Positions 1 to 47,860 of a stretch of 54,581 nt of DNA are shown in pieces. This DNA is from Candidatus Paceibacter sp. (GTDB lineage Bacteria > Patescibacteriota > Minisyncoccia > UBA6257 > JAGOQP01), in assembly GCA_020724905.1 (NCBI GenBank), contig DYGB01000005.1, forward strand, positions 1 to 54,581. The letters are read 5' to 3'. Under the pieces are notes generated by a model. It was not told the origin of the DNA and ran no database searches. It worked only from the letters and a program-made list of their open reading frames with translations. Numbering within the stretch: the first letter of the stretch is position 1; each line of letters begins with the position of its first letter. The position numbers and the translations under genes are program-made.

Positions 1-84
1 GGAATTGAGCTTCGCTCACCGATTGATATGGTTCCAAGGTCTTGAACTTATTACACCCCTGTGTAGAGGGGTTGATGAGGGAAG

Positions 85-1918: not shown

Positions 1919-4051
1919 CTACTCTTCTAAGAATTTTTCATCACTTTCTTTCCCAATATACACTTCACGAGGTTTTGAGCCTTCTCCTGGTCCAATATGA
2001 CCCTTATTTTCGAGAAGATCAAGGAGACGTGCTGCGCGAGCATATCCTATCTTCAAATGTCTCTGAAGGAATGTTGCAGAAGCCTTGCCCGTCTCTCGTA
2101 CAAGTTCGGTTGCCTCTGGGAGAAGATCATCTTCTTCTGTACTTTCTTCAAATGCTTCAAACATACTATCAGAAGATTCTTCTTGAGAATCATTTCCAAA
2201 ATGTACGTCGTGATCAGGAAGCTCATTATTTTTCTTTATAAATGAGGTAATTTCTTGTATCTCTTCCTCGCTAATAAAGGCTCCTTGGAGTCGCTTTGGC
2301 TTTGAGAGCTGAGCATTCATAAAGAGAAGATCTCCACCTCCCAAAAGTTTTTCAGCACCAGCAGTATCAAGGATAGTACGTGAGTCAATTTGACTTGCTA
2401 CTTGGAGAGCGATACGAGCGGTGATGTTTGCTTTAATAAGGCCAGTAATAACTTCAACTGAAGGTCGTTGTGTTGAGAGAATAAGATGAATACCCGTTGC
2501 ACGAGCCATCTGTGCAAGGCGTACAATAGCATTTTCAATATCACGTCCATACGAAGACATAAGATCAGCCATTTCATCAACAACGATAACAATAAAAGGA
2601 AGTTTCTCCTTTGCTTTTTTATTGTAACTTTGAATATCTCGGGCACCAGCCTTCATCAGTGTTTCATACCGGCGATCCATTTCACTAATAGCCCATCTAA
2701 ATACTGCAAGAGATTTTTTTCCTTCAGTAACTACCGGAGAAATAAGATGAGGGAGTCCGTTATACGCACTGAGTTCAACACGTTTTGGATCGATAAGAAT
2801 GAATCGAAGTGTTTCAGGGGAATTCTTGTACAACAGTGAGATTAATACAGAGTGAAGGGTAATTGATTTCCCCGATCCTGTTGCTCCGGCGATAAGAAGG
2901 TGAGGCATCTTTTCTATATTTGCAAAGAGAGGCTCCCCAGTGACGTCTCGTCCAAGACAGAATCCAAGGGGTCCTGATGAACTAAACTCTGGATATGAGA
3001 TAAGATTTCCAAGTCTCACTACAGCAGCTTTTTTGTTTGGCACTTCTATTCCTACGTATGGTTTTCCAGGGATAGGGGCTTCAATACGGATAGGGTGTGC
3101 AGACAGTGCGAGCGCAAGATCCTGGTTAAGTGCAATGATACGAGAAAGTTTTATTCCTTCTGCGGGACGAAGGGTAAAGCGAGTTACCTTTGGCCCAATG
3201 TTAATCTCTCCCATATCAACAGGAATTCCAAAACTCTCAAGTGTCCTTTTTATAATATTTGATTGTGCGCGTAAATCTCCTGCTGCAGGTTTTTCTGCTG
3301 ATGAGGTAAGAATGTTAAGAGGAGGAGGGGTATAGTTGGCAAAAGAAAAATGAGGAATCTTTGAAGGAGGAGTAAAGACCTCTTCTCGTTCTTGTATCTG
3401 GAGCTCTTCTTCTTTTTTAACTTCTTTTTTCACAGGAGCCTTTTCTTCTGTCTCGGTGGAATCCTTTTGAGCTGCAGCAATATAGGTTTCTTCTTTTTTG
3501 TTGAGGGTTGAAGGGGAAGGTATCTCTTCTTTCTTTGATGAAGAGAAGAAAGATATAACTGCTCGAAGGAAGGAAGAAAAAGAAGTAACAGAGGTGTCAA
3601 AAGCGATAACAGCTCCAATAATCATTGCAAAGAAAAGAATGATACCAGAGGCAAGAGATCCAAACCAATGATCGATATATCCTACGCCTCGTCCAATAAT
3701 TCCTCCAGCGTTATAGGAGAGTACATCAATAAACCCAAGACCAGAGAGAAAGAAAACAACACTTCCAAGGATAATTGGTCCAGAGAGTGTTTTTTCTTCT
3801 TTGCTAGTAAGAAGGAGTATAGCGATACTAAGAAATACAATTGGAAGCAGAAGGTATCCCCACCCAAAGAGGGTTGAGAGAAATGAAAAGAGTCCTTCTC
3901 CAGCACTTCCTGCCTTATCGATACTTGCGAGCCCAAGGATGAGCGCAATCACAATAAAAAAGAGTGCCCAAATACTTCGTTTTGTTTCTGATGAAAGTGA
4001 TAATGAGGGACGGTATGTCTTTAATCGTCCTATTTTCTTTTTACGAGCCAT
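1919..4051 (-). CDS. ftsK: DNA translocase FtsK/SpoIIIE
   Basis: N-terminal TM helices, PHLLIAGATGSGKS, IDPKRVEL, TQRPSV, gamma domain LQRHLKIGYARAARLLD; start moved to MARKK at 4051. Confidence 0.97.
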   Translation of the reverse strand: MARKKKIGRLKTYRPSLSLSSETKRSIWALFFIVIALILGLASIDKAGSAGEGLFSFLSTLFGWGYLLLPIVFLSIAILLLTSKEEKTLSGPIILGSVVFFLSGLGFIDVLSYNAGGIIGRGVGYIDHWFGSLASGIILFFAMIIGAVIAFDTSVTSFSSFLRAVISFFSSSKKEEIPSPSTLNKKEETYIAAAQKDSTETEEKAPVKKEVKKEEELQIQEREEVFTPPSKIPHFSFANYTPPPLNILTSSAEKPAAGDLRAQSNIIKRTLESFGIPVDMGEINIGPKVTRFTLRPAEGIKLSRIIALNQDLALALSAHPIRIEAPIPGKPYVGIEVPNKKAAVVRLGNLISYPEFSSSGPLGFCLGRDVTGEPLFANIEKMPHLLIAGATGSGKSITLHSVLISLLYKNSPETLRFILIDPKRVELSAYNGLPHLISPVVTEGKKSLAVFRWAISEMDRRYETLMKAGARDIQSYNKKAKEKLPFIVIVVDEMADLMSSYGRDIENAIVRLAQMARATGIHLILSTQRPSVEVITGLIKANITARIALQVASQIDSRTILDTAGAEKLLGGGDLLFMNAQLSKPKRLQGAFISEEEIQEITSFIKKNNELPDHDVHFGNDSQEESSDSMFEAFEESTEEDDLLPEATELVRETGKASATFLQRHLKIGYARAARLLDLLENKGHIGPGEGSKPREVYIGKESDEKFLEE

Positions 4052-42309: not shown

Positions 42310-43743
42310 ATGACTACATCTGATACATCAAAAAAACAGCCACGACCACCAATAGTTGTTGTTATGGGCCATGTCGATCATGGGAAAACAACACTGCTTG
42401 ACTATATCCGAGAGACAAAAACTGCTGAAAGAGAAGCGGGAGGAATCACACAATCTGTTGGTGCTTATGAAGTAGAGAAGAATGGCAAGAAAATAACCTT
42501 TATTGATACCCCAGGACATGAGGCGTTTAACCATATGCGCCAAAGAGGTGCATCAATTGCTGATGTTGCGGTACTTGTTGTTGCTGCTGATGATGGAGTC
42601 AAGCCACAAACCAAAGAAGCCATTAACATTCTCAAAGAAACGAATACTCCTTTTGTTGTTGCGATAAACAAGATTGATAAAAACAATGCAGATCCAGAGA
42701 GAACAAAACAAGATCTTCTTGCTCATGAGGTGTATCTTGAAAAACTAGGAGGAGATGTGTCATGGGTAGAGATATCAGCAAAAACAGGGGAGTGTGTTGA
42801 AAGTCTTTTGGAGCATATTCTGTTGATGTGGGAGATTGATCCTCCACTTGCTGATGCTTCTGCTCCAGGAGAAGGTATTGTACTTGAATCATCACGAGGG
42901 AATCAGAGAGGTATTGTGGCAACTGTTATTGTTCGAAATGGAACAATTAAAAAAGGAGACAGTATTGCTACAGAACGAGTAGAAGGAAAAGTTCGTATCA
43001 TGGAAGACTTTTTAGGAAAGCAAATTGATGTGTGTCTTCCTTCTCAACCTGCAGTTATCGTTGGATTTTCCGATATTCCTCATGCAGGAGAAACAGTGCT
43101 GGTAGGAGGAGTTCCTCAAAAAGATGTTAAAGAAAATACTATTGAACAAAAAGAAGAAGATGAAGAAAAAGAAGTCATTGCCCTTATTGTAAAAGCAGAT
43201 GTATCAGGATCATTACAGGCACTTGTACAGATACTTCGTGCTATGAGTACTGATGAAGTAATCGTAAAAATTATTTCCCAAGAAGTGGGGGATATTACTG
43301 ATGGAGATGTAAAACATGCTGTTTCTACCGGAGCCTATATTGTGGGGTTTAATGTGAAAGCAAATAAAGCTGCTGAAAATGTTTCACAAGCACAAGATGT
43401 TACTATCATCACCTCAAATATTATCTATAACATTGTTGAGCAGTTTGAAAAACTCAGAGAAAAAGCACAAAAACCAGCACATCAAGGTATTCTTGAAGTA
43501 CTTGCAGTCTTTTCTCAGAAAAATGAGAAACAAGTTATTGGAGGAAAAATTGTTGAAGGATACATTTCAGAAAAAGATGTCTTTGTGTGCCAAAGAGATG
43601 GAGAAGATATAGGAAAGGGACGCATCAAAAACCTTCAACAAGATAAAGTTGATTGTAGGGAAGTACAAGAAGGGGAGTGTGGTCTTATGGTTGAATGTAA
43701 GGAACCTATTAAACCAGGAGATCATCTGGTAGTAGAAGCATAG
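42310..43743 (+). CDS. infB: Translation initiation factor IF-2 (no N-terminal domain)
   Basis: [33 protein letters not shown]. Confidence 0.96.
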
Positions 43744-43746
43744 AGT

Positions 43747-44049
43747 ATGTATAGAAAAGAAAGAATGGAGCATATTATACAAGAACGTCTTGCGCTCCAT
43801 ATCTCACGAGAAGTAGAAGATGAAATTTCAGCCCTTATCACTGTTACGCGTGTTGAAATTGATAATAACAATGAATATGCAATTGTGTATGTTTCAGTAC
43901 TCCCTGAAGGAAAAGAGAAACAAACACTTACACTACTAGAAAAGAAAAAAGGATACCTTGCATTCAAGGTATTAAAAGAAATGAAGGTACGCATATTACC
44001 ACTCATTTCATTTAGAGTTGATTCTGAGGCTAAGAAACTTCATAATTGA
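43747..44049 (+). CDS. rbfA: Ribosome-binding factor A
   Basis: Follows infB; LITVTRVE...AIVYVSV...P.ISFRVD. Confidence 0.88.
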   Translation: MYRKERMEHIIQERLALHISREVEDEISALITVTRVEIDNNNEYAIVYVSVLPEGKEKQTLTLLEKKKGYLAFKVLKEMKVRILPLISFRVDSEAKKLHN

Positions 44050-44055
44050 GCTGTA

Positions 44056-44127
44056 GGCCTGGTAGCCAAGTGGTAAGGCAGGAGTCTGCAAAACTCCTAT
44101 GCGCGGGTTCAATTCCCGCCCAGGCCT
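44056..44127 (+). tRNA. tRNA-Cys(GCA)
   Basis: GGAGT-CTGCAAA-ACTCC; U73. Confidence 0.96.
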
Positions 44128-44139
44128 CAAGGGTACTAT

Positions 44140-44228
44140 GCCCGGGTGGTGGAATTTGGTAGACACGAGAGACTTAAAATCTCTTGCTGTATAATAACGG
44201 CGTGCCGGTTCAAGTCCGGCCCCGGGCA
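44140..44228 (+). tRNA. tRNA-Leu(TAA)
   Basis: AGAGA-CTTAAAA-TCTCT; long variable arm. Confidence 0.96.
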
Positions 44229-44251
44229 CAAAAAGTAATAGAAAAAAATAT

Positions 44252-44458
44252 ATGACAAAAAAATTATACAGATCACAAAACAATAAGATTCTCACTGGTC
44301 TTTTAGGAGGACTCGCTGAATATTTTGATTTAGATGCATCACTTATTAGATTAGGATTTATTGTTCTTGTTGTGTTAACAGGTATTGTTCCATTTGTACT
44401 TGCATATATCATTGGAGCACTTGTTGTTGCTCTTGATCCTCACGTGAGTGAAAAATAG
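44252..44458 (+). CDS. pspC: PspC domain protein
   Basis: KKLYRSQNNKILTGLLGGLAEYF...IRL. Confidence 0.88.
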   Translation: MTKKLYRSQNNKILTGLLGGLAEYFDLDASLIRLGFIVLVVLTGIVPFVLAYIIGALVVALDPHVSEK

Positions 44459-44506
44459 GAAACTATTGATTATTTACCCCATTTTTCGTACTATGGGGTG
44501 TGTGTT

Positions 44507-44580
44507 GGCCCCATCGTCTAGCCTGGTCAGGACGCAAGGTTTTCATCCTTGAAACACGGGTTCAAATCCCGTTGGGGTCA
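44507..44580 (+). tRNA. tRNA-Glu(TTC)
   Basis: GGCCCCA/TGGGGTC; CAAGG-TTTTCAT-CCTTG. Confidence 0.96.
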
Positions 44581-44679
44581 CAAAGAGGGAAATATATACA
44601 GTACTTGACTTTTCTATAAATATATGTAACAATATATACATAGTTATTTTATAATTTCATACAACAAAAAGGTGAAGAA

Positions 44680-44904
44680 ATGAAAAAAACATCAAGTTTT
44701 TTAGTAGACGAACATAATCCCCCAACTTCCCAAAACACTGTTAAGCATGAGAAATCTCCGTTTGATGACCCAGAGATTAGGGAACTTTGGGATATGGTTT
44801 TTAACGATAAGGATAGGATAGAACGTGAAAAGAAAGAAATGGAACATGAAATGGACCTATTATTAGAAAAAGGACAGGGACGTGGTACCGGTAGTTGGTT
44901 ATGA
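44680..44904 (+). CDS. Small acidic hypothetical protein (cassette A)
   Basis: TTGACT promoter, AAGGTG RBS, terminator 44936-44968. Confidence 0.65.
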   Translation: MKKTSSFLVDEHNPPTSQNTVKHEKSPFDDPEIRELWDMVFNDKDRIEREKKEMEHEMDLLLEKGQGRGTGSWL

Positions 44905-44998
44905 AAGAAAAAACAAGGTGTTATTGATTTATTTTAATCCTCTCTTTTATTAAAAGAGGGGATTTTTTATCCAAATACCACTAAGCTCTCACATGCCC

Positions 44999-45028
44999 GG
45001 TTCCAAAGTTGTCCCGTTGGGGTCACAA
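44999..45028 (+). repeat. att-like repeat 1
   Basis: GGTTCCAAAGTTGTCCCGTTGGGGTCACAA, identical at 45853 and 46263. Confidence 0.95.
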
Positions 45029-45115
45029 GATTAATATTGACTTATAATTAATAACTATGTATAATAGATACATAGCTCTTTTAAATATTTAAAAACAAAC
45101 ATAGAGAGGAATCTC

Positions 45116-45763
45116 ATGGAACTATCTATAATATGTATCGCTATCGGTATAGGGTTGGTTGTCTCTCTGCTTATATATAGAAGCAGTAAAAAGAAAGCCA
45201 AAGAAGAGGAACTACTAGTGCCCTTTAGAGTGTTCTGGAATGATCAAATAGAAATACTTTTAAACAACCATTTTCCTTTAGCTGTTATCAAACAACTCCA
45301 GCTGAAGAGAGAAAAGATCCTTGCAATAGCAAAGGAATTAGATGTTCCGGAAGGTCACACGCCATTTATTCTTATTATCCCTAAAAAATACTGGGATAAA
45401 GAATATCCAAAACGCACAGGGGTTGATGTTAATAACATTGAAAACATAGTAGATACCCCCTCAGAGCCATATGCGATATTTGATATCGAGGATGGTTCAA
45501 AACATCGTGGATATTCACCTAGGGAAGCACAAAAAATATTAGAAGAAGAAGGTAGATCACCTCTTACTGCAGAAGAATGTATTATGTTTGCGCAGTACGT
45601 GCCTGTACTAAAAGACCATCATCTTAACTGTACCGGATCCCGCTGTCGGGGTGACGTCCCCGGTGTCTACCTGTCTGGCGGTGAGATGCCCAGGCTCAAC
45701 TGGCGCAGCCTCGAGTTTGGCGGTGTCGGGTGGGGGTCTCCCTCGTGCCGCAGTCGGCACTAG
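45116..45763 (+). CDS. Membrane-anchored protein with VR-like C-terminus (cassette B; DUF5701-like)
   Basis: N-terminal TM; GRSPLTAEE...GSR...VP...PRLNW...WGSPSC; last 40 codons 69% GC and A-poor. Confidence 0.75.
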   Translation: MELSIICIAIGIGLVVSLLIYRSSKKKAKEEELLVPFRVFWNDQIEILLNNHFPLAVIKQLQLKREKILAIAKELDVPEGHTPFILIIPKKYWDKEYPKRTGVDVNNIENIVDTPSEPYAIFDIEDGSKHRGYSPREAQKILEEEGRSPLTAEECIMFAQYVPVLKDHHLNCTGSRCRGDVPGVYLSGGEMPRLNWRSLEFGGVGWGSPSCRSRH

Positions 45764-45833
45764 GTCCCTTTGCCCTCGGTTTGTATCATAGACGGTTATA
45801 TTACATATGACCGTCTTTTTTTATCCAAACACT

Positions 45834-45882
45834 ACTAAATTGGCATACAAATGGTTCCAAAGTTGTCCCGTTGGGGTCACAA
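45834..45882 (+). repeat. att-like repeat 2
   Basis: 49 bp identical to 46244-46292. Confidence 0.95.
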
Positions 45883-45986
45883 AGAGAGGGGATACATACC
45901 ATATCTTGACTTTTATATAAATATATGTAATAATATATATGGAAAATTTACATATTTTTTATAACAAAAACAATAAGAGGTAAAAA

Positions 45987-46184
45987 ATGAAAAAGCATCA
46001 AGTTTCTTTGGAAGATGAATTTTTTAACAAAAAAATTATCTTAGCGCCAGACGACTTCGAAGATGATGGAATTGAAGAAGAAATACTCACTCCTATTATA
46101 GAATATGATGTTGCGGAACGTGAAATTGGTCGTTCCCTTCAGGAAAAATATTCTAGGGAAAACTGGATGTATGAAAAATGGTGA
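45987..46184 (+). CDS. Small acidic hypothetical protein (cassette C)
   Basis: Leader similar to cassette A; GAGGT RBS; terminator 46205-46232. Confidence 0.65.
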   Translation: MKKHQVSLEDEFFNKKIILAPDDFEDDGIEEEILTPIIEYDVAEREIGRSLQEKYSRENWMYEKW

Positions 46185-46243
46185 TATTTTGCCTTATACC
46201 TTTGCCCCCACTTACTTGTGGGGGATTTTTTTATTTAAAAACC

Positions 46244-46292
46244 ACTAAATTGGCATACAAATGGTTCCAAAGTTGTCCCGTTGGGGTCACAA
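46244..46292 (+). repeat. att-like repeat 3
   Basis: 49 bp identical to 45834-45882. Confidence 0.95.
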
Positions 46293-46364
46293 GAATAATG
46301 TTGACTTCATTTAGTAAGCTGTATATAACAGATATAGTTTCTTTAGAGAAAGGAGGTGATAGAA

Positions 46365-46457
46365 ATGAAGCGTTGGAATATTCCAGCTGTGAGACATTGT
46401 AATGAAGGTTGTTGTATATGCCCTGATATTTTTTTATATCAGGGCTTTTTAGTATGA
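46365..46457 (+). CDS. Putative 30-aa Cys-rich peptide (cassette D)
   Basis: TTGACT-17-TATAAC promoter, AGGAGGTG RBS; MKRWNIPAVRHCNEGCCICPDIFLYQGFLV. Confidence 0.4.
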   Translation: MKRWNIPAVRHCNEGCCICPDIFLYQGFLV

Positions 46458-46526
46458 AAAAGACTAAATCTTTATCTATCTATACATTTAGGGTAGTATA
46501 AAGGAACAGTAACGTATATATCTACT

Positions 46527-47159
46527 ATGGAAAAAGACATTACCATATCAAAAGCGCTTTTCTGGGGGTGGGAGTCATTTAAAAAACACTGGCAGATTCT
46601 TGTTGGAATGACACTCTTTGTATTTGCGATAAGTGCTATTGTCGGTTTTATTGCAGGAGATGGAGCTTCAGGGGTTGAAGGGGGAGCAGGATCGTTTCTT
46701 CTTAATATTTTTGTACATACATTTATAGGTATTGGACTTATTACCATAGGATTAGAGGTATACGCAGAAAAAACTCCAGTATTTAAAGATTTCTTTGTAA
46801 AAATGGAGCATTTTCTTAACTATCTTATTGGGATGCTTCTCTACAGTATTATCGTTATCATTGGATTCTTCCTTGTGTTCTTTCCAGGTGTTATTTGGGC
46901 ACTTAAGTATCAATTCTTTGGATATCTAATTGTTGAAAAAGGAATGAGTCCTATGGATGCATTGCGTCAAAGTGGAAAGATGACCTATGGAAAGAAATGG
47001 TTTTTACTATTATTCTGGATAGTTCTTTTCTTCTTCAATATTCTTGGAGCTATCGTTATTGGTATTGGACTTTTTGTAACGATTCCCGTTTCTCTCCTTG
47101 CAACAGTATATATTTACAAAAAACTTTCAAAGGACGCTACTACTAATCAAGAGCTGTAA
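46527..47159 (+). CDS. Integral membrane protein (DUF975-like)
   Basis: FFPGVIWALKY...MDALRQS.KMTYG...GLFVTIPV. Confidence 0.75.
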   Translation: MEKDITISKALFWGWESFKKHWQILVGMTLFVFAISAIVGFIAGDGASGVEGGAGSFLLNIFVHTFIGIGLITIGLEVYAEKTPVFKDFFVKMEHFLNYLIGMLLYSIIVIIGFFLVFFPGVIWALKYQFFGYLIVEKGMSPMDALRQSGKMTYGKKWFLLLFWIVLFFFNILGAIVIGIGLFVTIPVSLLATVYIYKKLSKDATTNQEL

Positions 47160-47860
47160 TGGAAAATAATCAAGAAAAAACATCACCATTTATTATTGGG
47201 GGATCTATTGTGCTTGCAGGACTTATTATCGCAGGGGCAATTTTGTATGTATCTGGTGCTTTGGAGAGTGGAAAGAATATAGTTCCACAACAAGACACCA
47301 CAACACCTGACCAAGCTCAGCAATTGTACCGTCCTGTTGATGAAACTGATCATATTAGAGGAAATAAAGATGCAGAGGTAGTGTTAATAGAATACTCAGA
47401 TACAGAATGTCCATTTTGTATTTCATTTCATAAAACACTCAAGCAGGTGATGAGTACATATGGGGAACAAGTAGCATGGGTATATCGTCATGTACCGCTT
47501 AAAAATCAATCACAACAAGAAGTGGTAGCTCTAGAGTGTGCGTATGATCAAGGAGGGGACAATGCGTTTTGGGCATACCTTGATCGACTCATGAGCATTT
47601 CTCCTGGGAATGATCAATTTGATCTCTCGCTACTTCCTGATATTGCTACACGAATAGGACTTGAAACAAATACATTCCAAGGATGTCTCCAAACAAAAGA
47701 TGTTTCATCACGTGTTATGCGTGATACTAATGATGCCTTTAGTGCAGGACTTAAGGGGACTCCATTTACACTCGTTGTGGGGAAAAAGGCAACGTTTAGT
47801 ATTGATGGAGCACAACCATTCTCTGTCGTTTCTTCATTTATTGAGCAAGCACTACAGTAA
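47159..47860 (+). CDS. DsbA-like thioredoxin protein
   Basis: EYSDTECPFC, YRHVPL, GTPF; N-terminal TM. Confidence 0.92.
   Translation: MENNQEKTSPFIIGGSIVLAGLIIAGAILYVSGALESGKNIVPQQDTTTPDQAQQLYRPVDETDHIRGNKDAEVVLIEYSDTECPFCISFHKTLKQVMSTYGEQVAWVYRHVPLKNQSQQEVVALECAYDQGGDNAFWAYLDRLMSISPGNDQFDLSLLPDIATRIGLETNTFQGCLQTKDVSSRVMRDTNDAFSAGLKGTPFTLVVGKKATFSIDGAQPFSVVSSFIEQALQ

What the first reader, a model, noticed from the sequence alone, without database searches (positions are those of the whole stretch)
44567..46457. Integron-like array of self-contained micro-cassettes stacked on tRNA-Glu
Seen: the last 14 nt of tRNA-Glu plus CAA recur inside an identical 30-mer at 44999, 45853 and 46263 (49 bp identical for the last two; all three are preceded by TTAT..AAA.AC.ACTAA). 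The repeats delimit units of about 445, 854 and 410 bp and an open fourth unit. Each unit has TTGACT-17-(-10 box) just after the repeat, an RBS, one ORF and an intrinsic terminator. No integrase is in the window. Established: tyrosine integrases duplicate tRNA 3' ends, but such islands are usually kilobases long and carry their integrase. Inference: non-autonomous single-gene cassettes inserted serially by a trans-acting recombinase, i.e. a tRNA-anchored gene-capture system. This is my best candidate for an undescribed system.
Basis: partly seen in the sequence, partly recalled or inferred. Interest (0 to 1): 0.85.

Follow-up and report, generated by a model that had tools for sequence, protein, structure and literature searches.

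The report
Mini gene modules stacked behind tRNA-Glu
Behind a tRNA-Glu gene of a tiny-genome bacterium sit three single-gene modules, each ending in a copy of the tRNA's tail, which looks like a miniature, integrase-less form of the gene islands that commonly build up at tRNA genes.

Summary
An exact 30-mer occurs three times (44999, 45853, 46263; 0 expected by chance). Its last 17 nt equal the tRNA-Glu(UUC) 3' end plus CAA. It bounds units of 445, 854 and 410 bp, each with a promoter-like site, an ORF and a terminator.

- A syntenic metagenome relative (L031, flanks 88-91% identical) has one unit at this site. So unit number varies, and the difference (U1+U2) runs exactly from one tRNA-tail copy to another.
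- The 'open fourth unit' is conserved native flank, not a cassette.
- U1 and U3 are internally diverged copies of one 'gene X' cassette, which is intact in L031. U2 carries a DUF5701 paralogue.
- The 30-mer aligns to the last 30 nt of the tRNA with an altered T arm. That is the anatomy of attR junctions left by tRNA-targeted site-specific integration.
- The junction module does not fold, so it is unlike integron attC.
- The only tyrosine recombinase in the 575-kb assembly is Xer-like and lies on another contig. No serine recombinase was found.
- Public-run contigs showed no joints and no excess depth, though such contigs cannot reveal rare circles.

Best reading: a miniature, integrase-less (CIME-like) accretion or duplication array at a tRNA gene. 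This is a new variant of a known kind, and active trans-mobilisation is unproven.

The parts
44507..44581 (+). tRNA-Glu(UUC), the anchor. Its last 14 nt plus CAA (44567-44583) form the repeated core, called 'O' here.
   Evidence: ARAGORN; Rfam tRNA model, 62.7 bits.
44584..45028 (+). Unit 1 (445 bp). Contains an A-type promoter (44605-44633), ORF1 (44680-44904, 74 aa, orphan), a terminator (44936-44964) and junction module P1-O (44962-45028).
   Evidence: ORF1 had 1 weak hit (E 0.009) in 150 genomes of the order besides the window's own. Both ends are homologous to the gene-X cassette of L031 (70.6% over 197 nt; 78% over 105 nt), while the middle ~170 nt is unrelated.
45029..45882 (+). Unit 2 (854 bp). 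Contains a B-type promoter (45037-45065, 11 of 12 consensus positions), ORF2 (45116-45763, 215 aa, DUF5701), a terminator (45790-45816) and junction module P2-O (45816-45882).
   Evidence: (PF18959, E 6e-10, 39.7 bits against a cut-off of 27.4). Paralogues lie at G000 C7:86897-87520 (46% aa) and C5:11052-11345. The promoter and 5'UTR are 82% identical to the region downstream of tRNA-Glu(CUC).
45883..46292 (+). Unit 3 (410 bp). Contains an A-type promoter (45906-45934), ORF3 (45987-46184, 65 aa), a terminator (46205-46224) and junction module P3-O (46226-46292). It is the positional counterpart of the single cassette in relative L031.
   Evidence: Core plus promoter is 84% identical to L031 over 140 nt, and P3-O is 86% identical to L031's module. 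The ORF body is diverged, and 65 aa stand where L031 has a 159-aa gene X.
46293..46526 (+). The 'fourth unit', which is native flank. Contains a B-type promoter-like site (46301-46335), a 30-aa Cys-rich ORF4 (46365-46457) whose 3' end overlaps a terminator (46420-46445), and then the DUF975 gene from 46527.
   Evidence: Collinear with L031 6136-14369 at 88.4% identity. ORF4 is identical at 30 of 33 residues in L031. Terminator. No further tail copy follows.
44999..45028 (+). Copy 1 of the 30-mer: 13 nt on the element side (GGTTCCAAAGTTG) followed by the 17-nt tRNA-identical core.
   Evidence: A profile of the module aligns the tRNA genes to its last 30 positions.
45853..45882 (+). Copy 2 of the 30-mer.
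46263..46292 (+). Copy 3 of the 30-mer.

Best explanation
The stretch is a small hypervariable islet built at the 3' end of tRNA-Glu(UUC) by recombination at att-type junctions.

Each unit ends in a ~67-bp module. The module consists of a conserved arm 'P', then 13 nt that are a garbled copy of the tRNA T arm, then 17 nt identical to the tRNA end. This is what an attR junction looks like after an element integrates into the T-loop region of a tRNA gene.

Repeated events of this kind, or unequal exchange between junctions already present, stacked three integrase-less single-gene modules between the tRNA and its original downstream flank (unit 4). Whole modules are gained or lost between core copies.

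The modules are cargo-only remnants of the CIME type. Two of them (U1, U3) are diverged copies of one gene-X cassette. The third (U2) carries a DUF5701 paralogue.

Shown: the anatomy, the variation between relatives, and the paralogy. Inferred: that a site-specific recombinase made the first junctions, and that it is or was supplied from outside the assembled chromosome.
For: 1. The repeats are real and confined to this locus. The profile found 3 window copies plus 1 in L031 and nothing else in G000.
2. The profile aligns both tRNA-Glu genes to the module's last 30 positions. The 30-mer is therefore a tRNA 3' copy with an altered T arm followed by an exact block. The same pattern is described for Dehalococcoides ssrA direct repeats, where a 15-bp motif upstream of the repeat does not align with ssrA and insertion is placed in the T loop (PMC3146451, passages read).
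3. Relative L031 has tRNA-Glu, one cassette, and one decaying module whose core has 2 mismatches. After that come a 17-nt stub of another A-type unit and a 25-nt IS-end stub, then the same flank as the window. Its cassette matches U3 better than U1 (84% against 71%). The window's extra 1299 bp (U1+U2) therefore lies next to the tRNA and is bounded by cores, as serial integration at the tRNA predicts.
4. No unit contains a recombinase, and each is compact: promoter, ORF, terminator, module.
5. Extra tRNA-Glu tail copies also lie downstream of tRNA-Glu in 3 of the 14 other family tRNA-Glu loci examined (2 within <=2 mismatches of the 14-nt core, G011 and G009; a shorter 12-nt copy in G005 read by eye): G011 at +1010 and +1189 with an ORF module between, G009 at +154, G005 at about +105.
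6. Integrase-less att-flanked remnants and tandem accretion are an established process (PMC5704250, passages; tycheposon preprint 10.1101/2020.12.28.424599, passages).
Against: 1. No integrase-bearing parent element was found. The genome has one PF00589 hit, an XerC/D-like 302-aa protein on contig C7. PF00239 gave no hit. Exact scans of viral contigs for the junction found nothing. Four viral contigs hold the 17-mer: 3 are whole tRNA-Glu genes of unrelated GC content, and 1 is a partial tRNA that I did not follow up.
2. Contigs of 4 public runs showed no joints in the array. In run X1 the unit depths (8.4, 9.1, 10.4) equal those of the flanks (10.4, 10.8). Contigs drop rare forms, so this neither shows nor excludes circles.
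3. P2-O and P3-O are 94% identical, more alike than P3-O and its L031 counterpart (86%). This points to recent duplication within the genome or to gene conversion, not to import.
4. The promoter parts of the units have paralogues at ordinary loci that lack the module: C9:45179-45278 and the region downstream of tRNA-Glu(CUC). Homologous exchange could therefore have shaped much of the array.
5. Only one close relative was available, so insertion cannot be told from deletion.
Confidence: 0.5

Rival explanations
1. An active, integron-like capture system exists in which 0.4-0.9 kb single-gene circles are inserted and excised at the tRNA-Glu core. The recombinase acts in trans and could be the host Xer protein or a helper element.
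For: Units are compact and carry their own expression signals. The 30-mer is 100% identical in all 3 copies while the adjoining P arms differ by up to 20%, which would fit a constrained recombination site. Unit content differs between relatives exactly at core copies. The solitary module in L031 is decaying (2 core mismatches), which would be expected once a site is no longer used.
Against: No circles, joints or depth excess were seen (contigs only). No recombinase other than a Xer-like one is present. The module has no dyad symmetry or fold. Two of the three units are diverged paralogues of one cassette. P2 and P3 look like a recent local copy. No second genome carries these units at another site bounded by the same module; gene-X copies at C9 and C4 lack it.
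Confidence: 0.14
2. No site-specific recombinase was ever involved. In this model the array arose by segmental duplication and unequal homologous exchange among repeated sequences: the two tRNA-Glu genes, the A- and B-type promoter families, and multi-copy gene families. Rapid divergence and deletion followed.
For: A and B promoter/5'UTR families recur at other loci. The core|B junction exists natively behind tRNA-Glu(CUC) once the IS insertion is removed. Units alternate A-B-A-B, with repeat spacings of 1301-1306 bp. P2-O and P3-O are 94% identical. Gene X and DUF5701 are multi-copy families with fragments.
Against: Units resemble each other only at their ends, not along their length, so this is not a simple tandem duplication. 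This model does not explain where the first P arm joined to a T-arm-altered tRNA tail came from, whereas that is the standard product of integration. The P-O module occurs nowhere else in the genome.
Confidence: 0.22
3. The tRNA-tail copies are functional RNA or DNA signals rather than recombination scars. They could be, for example, a tRNA-like processing or stabilising end for the unit transcripts, or a reduced relative of the structured element that follows tRNA-Glu in other genera.
For: In 10 of 14 family tRNA-Glu loci examined, a 110-190 nt GC-rich element follows tRNA-Glu and ends in a tRNA-tail copy. In 7 type-1 copies, 11 of 20 predicted pairs show compensatory changes.
Against: Each module lies downstream of its unit's terminator. 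It does not fold better than shuffles, with z from +0.6 to +1.6. The covariance model of the relatives' element finds nothing in the window, G000 or L031. The L031 copy is decaying.
Confidence: 0.06

Closest known systems
CIMEs (cis-mobilizable elements) and tandem accretion at tRNA genes, as in the ICESt1/ICESt3 family and streptococcal IMEs
   Same: Units are flanked by att-type direct repeats of the target gene's 3' end. They have lost integrase and transfer genes, are stacked in tandem, and new units enter next to the target gene (PMC5704250, passages).
   Different: Described CIMEs are, from recall, several kb long and recognisably derived from ICEs or IMEs with known integrases. Here the units are 0.41-0.85 kb with one gene each, and no parent element or integrase is known.
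Dehalococcoides ssrA genomic islands
   Same: They occur in a streamlined genome. [quoted passage not shown] A conserved motif just upstream of each repeat does not align with the gene, which places the crossover in the T loop. Some islands lack the integration module and were suggested to be CIMEs (PMC3146451, passages).
   Different: Most of those islands carry a serine-recombinase integration module. From my reading of that paper they are multi-gene islands, though I saw no size figures in the passages. No serine recombinase was found in this genome.
Tycheposons and tRNA-anchored islands of Prochlorococcus
   Same: Successive integrations at one tRNA are separated only by partial tRNA copies. 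Degenerate remnants and stray partial tRNAs accumulate in small streamlined genomes (10.1101/2020.12.28.424599, passages).
   Different: Tycheposons carry their own tyrosine recombinase and replication genes. None is present here.
Integrons (IntI, attI, attC cassettes)
   Same: Both are an ordered array of single-gene units at one anchor site, with unit number varying between relatives.
   Different: There is no IntI next to the array or in the genome. The junction module has no attC-like hairpin. Every unit has its own promoter and terminator, whereas integron cassettes are, from recall, typically promoterless. The anchor here is a tRNA gene.
Xer-dependent modules (IMEX elements, Acinetobacter pdif modules)
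   Same: In those systems, small recombinase-less gene modules are moved by the host's own tyrosine recombinase. This is the only known way the window's sole tyrosine recombinase could be the actor.
   Different: Those modules are bounded by 28-bp dif-like sites with two inverted arms (recalled). I saw no such dyad in the P-O module (one search lists no inverted repeat there). The genome's dif site was not determined.

Membership tests
Integron | IntI-type tyrosine recombinase gene adjacent to the array | tested here: not met
   PF00589 hits the genome once, on contig C7. That 302-aa protein reads as XerC/D-like by its sequence and context. None lies in the window.
Integron | attC sites: imperfect palindromes that fold as hairpins | tested here: not met
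   All four P-O modules folded no better than shuffles, with z from +0.62 to +1.63. No inverted repeat involves them.
Integron | Cassettes mostly promoterless and read from a common promoter | tested here: not met
   U1-U3 each have a TTGACT-17-(-10) site and their own terminator.
att-bounded integrase-less remnants (CIME-like) in tandem accretion at a tRNA gene | Each unit bounded by a direct repeat of the tRNA 3' end | tested here: met
   The 17-nt core is present at the tRNA and at the end of each of U1-U3.
att-bounded integrase-less remnants (CIME-like) in tandem accretion at a tRNA gene | Conserved element-side arm next to the distal repeat, as in an attR junction | tested here: met
   The 67-nt P-O modules are 79-94% alike, and one more copy lies in L031. 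The tRNA aligns only to the last 30 positions.
att-bounded integrase-less remnants (CIME-like) in tandem accretion at a tRNA gene | No integration or transfer genes inside the units | tested here: met
   ORFs of 74, 215 and 65 aa. Pfam gives DUF5701 for ORF2 and only sub-threshold hits for ORF1 and ORF3.
att-bounded integrase-less remnants (CIME-like) in tandem accretion at a tRNA gene | Descent from, or mobilisation by, an element with a matching integrase | tested here: inconclusive
   None was found in G000, by exact junction scans of viral contigs or of genome contigs. The assembly has 9 contigs and may lack mobile DNA. These scans match exact patterns only.
att-bounded integrase-less remnants (CIME-like) in tandem accretion at a tRNA gene | Excision or loss of units by recombination between att copies | tested here: inconclusive
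   The L031-versus-window difference is bounded by cores. No joints appeared in contigs of 4 runs. Raw reads were not available.
Simple tandem duplication | Units alike along their whole length | tested here: not met
   U1 and U3 align only at positions 1-146 and 392-462 (77-79%). U2 and U4 share only the module and promoter (79% over 115 nt).

The most novel reading that the evidence does not exclude
Patescibacterial genomes of this family may use the tRNA-Glu 3' end as a docking site for recombinase-less single-gene cassettes. Each cassette would carry its own promoter, terminator and a ~67-bp att module. They would be shuffled in trans, either by the host's only tyrosine recombinase (Xer) or by a transient helper element. 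That would amount to a minimal gene-capture system for ultra-small genomes that lack the classical mobile-element machinery.
Probability: 0.13. Interest if true: 0.8.

Novelty: new variant of a known kind. Interest (0 to 1): 0.45.

Why it matters
Bacteria with ~0.6-Mb genomes carry few recognisable mobile elements, so how they gain and lose accessory genes is unclear. This locus shows that accessory content next to a tRNA gene turns over in whole single-gene modules between two lineages about 10% apart. The junctions look like integration scars, yet no integrase is on board.

If a trans-acting enzyme could be shown, this would be the smallest att-bounded mobile unit known and a model for gene flux in streamlined genomes. 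If not, it remains a clear example of how tRNA-anchored islands decay to their minimal parts.

Tried and rejected
- Simple tandem duplication: rejected, because units match only at their ends.
- attC-like folding of the junction module: rejected.
- Rfam: only the three tRNAs in 43500-47500, and only tRNAs plus sub-threshold chance hits in 8 relatives' loci.
- GC-rich tail of ORF2 as a hidden RNA gene: rejected. It is coding and is conserved in the C7 paralogue.
- P-O as a remnant of the relatives' structured element: covariance model R1 found nothing in G000, the window or L031. The genome search itself notes that an empty answer shows little.
- P arm as a piece of the IS end: the arm shares ATGGTTCCAA.GT with the IS481-like inverted repeats, but nothing beyond about 12 nt. 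This is left unexplained.
- Circles or unit-loss alleles: read laying on X1, X3, X4 and X5 gave only Logan contigs, which break at the repeats. There were no joints in the array. The one joint listed (44128 to 44201) lies in the tRNA-Cys/tRNA-Leu stretch and comes from other organisms' tRNAs.
- Coverage gaps and identical pieces in runs: X4 lacks cover over 44672-45475 at about 6x depth. X5 holds a 216-nt contig identical to 44638-44853 while its flank contigs differ by 6-9%. Both could reflect low coverage or mixed strains, so I draw no conclusion.
- RNA evidence: no RNA holder was listed.
- Exact-pattern scans: the junction 24-mer and the IS 19-mer in viral contigs gave 0. The junction 19-mer in genome contigs gave 0.
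- PHROGs: no hit at E <= 0.01 for the unit ORFs; ORF1 had two weak hits at E 0.04-0.07.
- Gene X against ORF2 by BLASTP: no similarity. The atlas hint that both approach DUF5701-like clusters is a lead only.
- Literature: a search for Patescibacteria + genomic island + tRNA + integrase gave 7 papers, of which 6 were listed. None is on this topic by title or abstract. Supplements were not consulted.
Full report
**Observation.** ARAGORN places tRNA-Glu(ttc) at 44507-44581. The 30-mer GGTTCCAAAGTTGTCCCGTTGGGGTCACAA occurs exactly three times, at 44999, 45853 and 46263. No further copy appears at up to 3 mismatches, and none appeared in 100 shuffles. There are no other copies in the 575,572-bp, 9-contig genome G000. 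Its last 17 nt equal the final 14 nt of the tRNA plus CAA. Copy spacings are 445, 854 and 410 bp. Copies 2 and 3 share 49 identical bases, and all three follow TTAT..AAA.AC.ACTAA. The scan found + strand terminators at the end of each unit and TTGACT-17-(-10) sites at the start of units 1-3. The unit-4 site is weaker and I read it by eye. The description is confirmed.

**Genome context.** G000 is 39% GC and 98.5% complete by markers. Atlas neighbours and the record titles of related hits place it among Patescibacteria/Minisyncoccota. The local gene order is IF-2, tRNA-Cys, tRNA-Leu, a PspC-domain protein, tRNA-Glu, the array, a DUF975 membrane protein, and a DsbA-like thioredoxin. The genome has a single PF00589 hit, a 302-aa XerC/D-like protein on contig C7. 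It has no PF00239 or PF01609 hit and two rve-type ORFs elsewhere. A second tRNA-Glu, anticodon CUC and 97% identical with the same 3' end, sits 60 nt from the end of contig C4.

**What the units contain.**
- U2 encodes a 215-aa DUF5701 protein (PF18959, E 6e-10). Paralogues lie on C7 (46% aa) and C5. Homologues were found in 16 of 151 genomes of the order, G000 included.
- U3 begins like 'gene X', a 159-aa protein of no Pfam family. Gene X has full copies at C9:45264-45740 and C4:5628-6101 and a fragment at C4:6428-6532. Homologues were found in 11 of 151 genomes.
- U1 and U3 match the intact gene-X cassette only at their two ends: core, promoter, 5'UTR and first codons at one end, and terminator plus module at the other. 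Their middles are unrelated or deleted.
- ORF1 is an orphan. Of 151 genomes, 2 had a match: G000 itself and one weak hit at E 0.009.
- The promoters fall into two families. Type A occurs in U1, U3 and at C9. Type B occurs in U2, unit 4 and the region behind tRNA-Glu(CUC).

**The decisive comparison.** A metagenome contig, L031, is collinear with the window at 91% identity upstream and 88% downstream. Between tRNA-Glu and the DUF975 gene it holds the following, in order:
- one cassette: type-A promoter, full-length gene X, terminator;
- one P-O module whose core has two mismatches;
- a 17-nt stub of another type-A unit;
- a 25-nt stub of an IS end;
- the type-B promoter and the 33-aa ORF4, identical at 30 of 33 residues.

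Three conclusions follow. First, unit 4 of the window is native flank. Second, L031's cassette corresponds to U3: 84% identity for core plus promoter and 86% for the module, against 71% and 78% for U1. Third, the window's additional 1299 bp (U1+U2) lies next to the tRNA and runs from core to core. That is the layout expected if new units enter at the tRNA and push older ones outward. It is equally the layout expected if L031 lost them by exchange between cores.

**Nature of the junction module.** A profile built from the four P-O modules finds only those four. It aligns both tRNA-Glu genes to its last 30 positions. The 30-mer is therefore a copy of the tRNA's 3' end in which the T arm is garbled and the last 17 nt are exact. 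Dehalococcoides ssrA islands show the same arrangement, and there it was used to place the crossover in the T loop (PMC3146451, passages). The module has no inverted repeat and folds no better than shuffles, so it is not attC-like.

**Evidence on present-day mobility.** Four public runs were laid on the locus, and all are Logan contigs. In X1 the unit contigs have depths of 8.4, 9.1 and 10.4 against flank depths of 10.4 and 10.8. No joint lies in the array. Contigs break at the repeats and drop rare variants, so this test is blunt.

Some signs point to intragenomic copying or gene conversion. P2-O and P3-O are 94% identical, above the 86% seen between P3-O and its L031 counterpart. The 30-mer is perfectly identical in three modules whose arms differ by up to 20%. 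This could reflect a constrained site, or gene conversion confined to it.

**Wider family.** In the 14 tRNA-Glu loci examined from the same family, 3 carry extra tail copies downstream: G011 has two, with a 218-aa ORF module between; G009 has one; G005 has one short copy read by eye. Ten of the 14 have a 110-190 nt GC-rich element after the tRNA's terminator. It starts with an inverted copy of the tRNA 3' end and finishes with a direct copy. In 7 type-1 copies, 11 of 20 predicted pairs show compensatory changes. Rfam has no match for it, and the model R1 built from it finds nothing in G000 or L031. tRNA-Glu is thus a recurrent site of tail duplication in this family, but the window's module is not detectably the same element.

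**Verdict.** The array is real, variable and bounded by att-type junctions. It fits a known process: tandem accretion and decay of elements at tRNA genes, leaving integrase-less remnants (PMC5704250 and the tycheposon preprint, passages). What is unusual is the scale, one gene and 0.4-0.9 kb per unit, in a genome whose only tyrosine recombinase is Xer-like. It fails the integron criteria that I could test. Active trans-mobilisation is neither excluded nor shown, and I put it near 0.13-0.14. My confidence values are 0.5 for the CIME-like reading, 0.22 for purely homologous duplication and exchange, 0.14 for the active system, and 0.06 for a functional RNA or DNA signal.

Noticed in passing
window 1-55; G000 contig ends C1 (both), C3 5', C4 3', C5 3', C7 5'; C5:43236-43267; L031 6111-6135; L083-L112: An IS481-like insertion sequence breaks the assembly. 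A complete copy in L084 is about 0.93 kb with a 302-aa HTH+rve transposase. The inverted repeats are 26-27 bp and begin TGTAAT/TGTTAT, and the target duplications are 6 bp (CTAATA, TGATAC, AATACA). In all 3 resolved G000 insertions the right end lies exactly 6 bp upstream of a TTGAC -35 box. Of 30 ends in other Patescibacteria genomes, 13 have TTGAC within 22 nt of the end, 9 of them at exactly that spacing, and further ends show TTGAT or TTTAC there. This suggests promoter-edge targeting. One copy sits 9 nt behind tRNA-Glu(CUC), and a stub sits beside the array in L031.
   Followed up: partly
L008 1305-1458(-), L010 1619-1732, L012 2453-2587 and 2627-2766, L014 1612-1729, L015 1617-1757, L019 1341-1464(-); type 2 in L009, L011, L016, L018: A conserved structured element follows tRNA-Glu and its terminator in 10 of 14 family loci. 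Its ends are an inverted and a direct copy of the tRNA-Glu 3' end. Internal hairpins covary (11 of 20 pairs with compensatory changes). It has no Rfam family. It may be an undescribed tRNA-minihelix-like RNA or a folded att site.
   Followed up: partly
window 46365-46457: A 30-aa ORF with four Cys residues in its CNEGCCIC stretch has its last codons running through an intrinsic terminator. It lies just upstream of the DUF975 and DsbA-like thioredoxin genes and is identical at 30 of 33 residues in L031. It could be a leader peptide or attenuator for a thiol-related operon.
   Followed up: no
G000 C4:71374-71448 and C5:60805-60930 (reverse strand): With the IS insertion removed, tRNA-Glu(CUC) is followed directly by a type-B promoter and a small secreted-looking protein gene. 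This gives the same core|B junction as at the starts of unit 2 and unit 4.
   Followed up: partly
G000 C4:5300-6600 and C9:45150-45830: The gene-X family has two full copies, and the C4 copy is fused to an N-terminal extension (221-aa frame). A C-terminal fragment lies 300 nt further on. The copies share 3'UTR and terminator sequences with the L031 cassette but lack the P-O module.
   Followed up: partly
L080 (viral contig, 37% GC), match at 3953-3969(-): A partial tRNA-Glu 3' half (anticodon arm to 3' end, with no 5' half) carries the same 17-mer. It may be a phage attachment site for this kind of tRNA-Glu. Its flanks are unlike the window's P arm.
   Followed up: no
L043 2657-3421(-) (genome G025): Beside a DUF5701 homologue lies a 254-aa ORF. 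From recall, not from a family search, it looks like an AbiEii-type nucleotidyltransferase toxin. This hints that DUF5701 genes sit in accessory or defence neighbourhoods.
   Followed up: no
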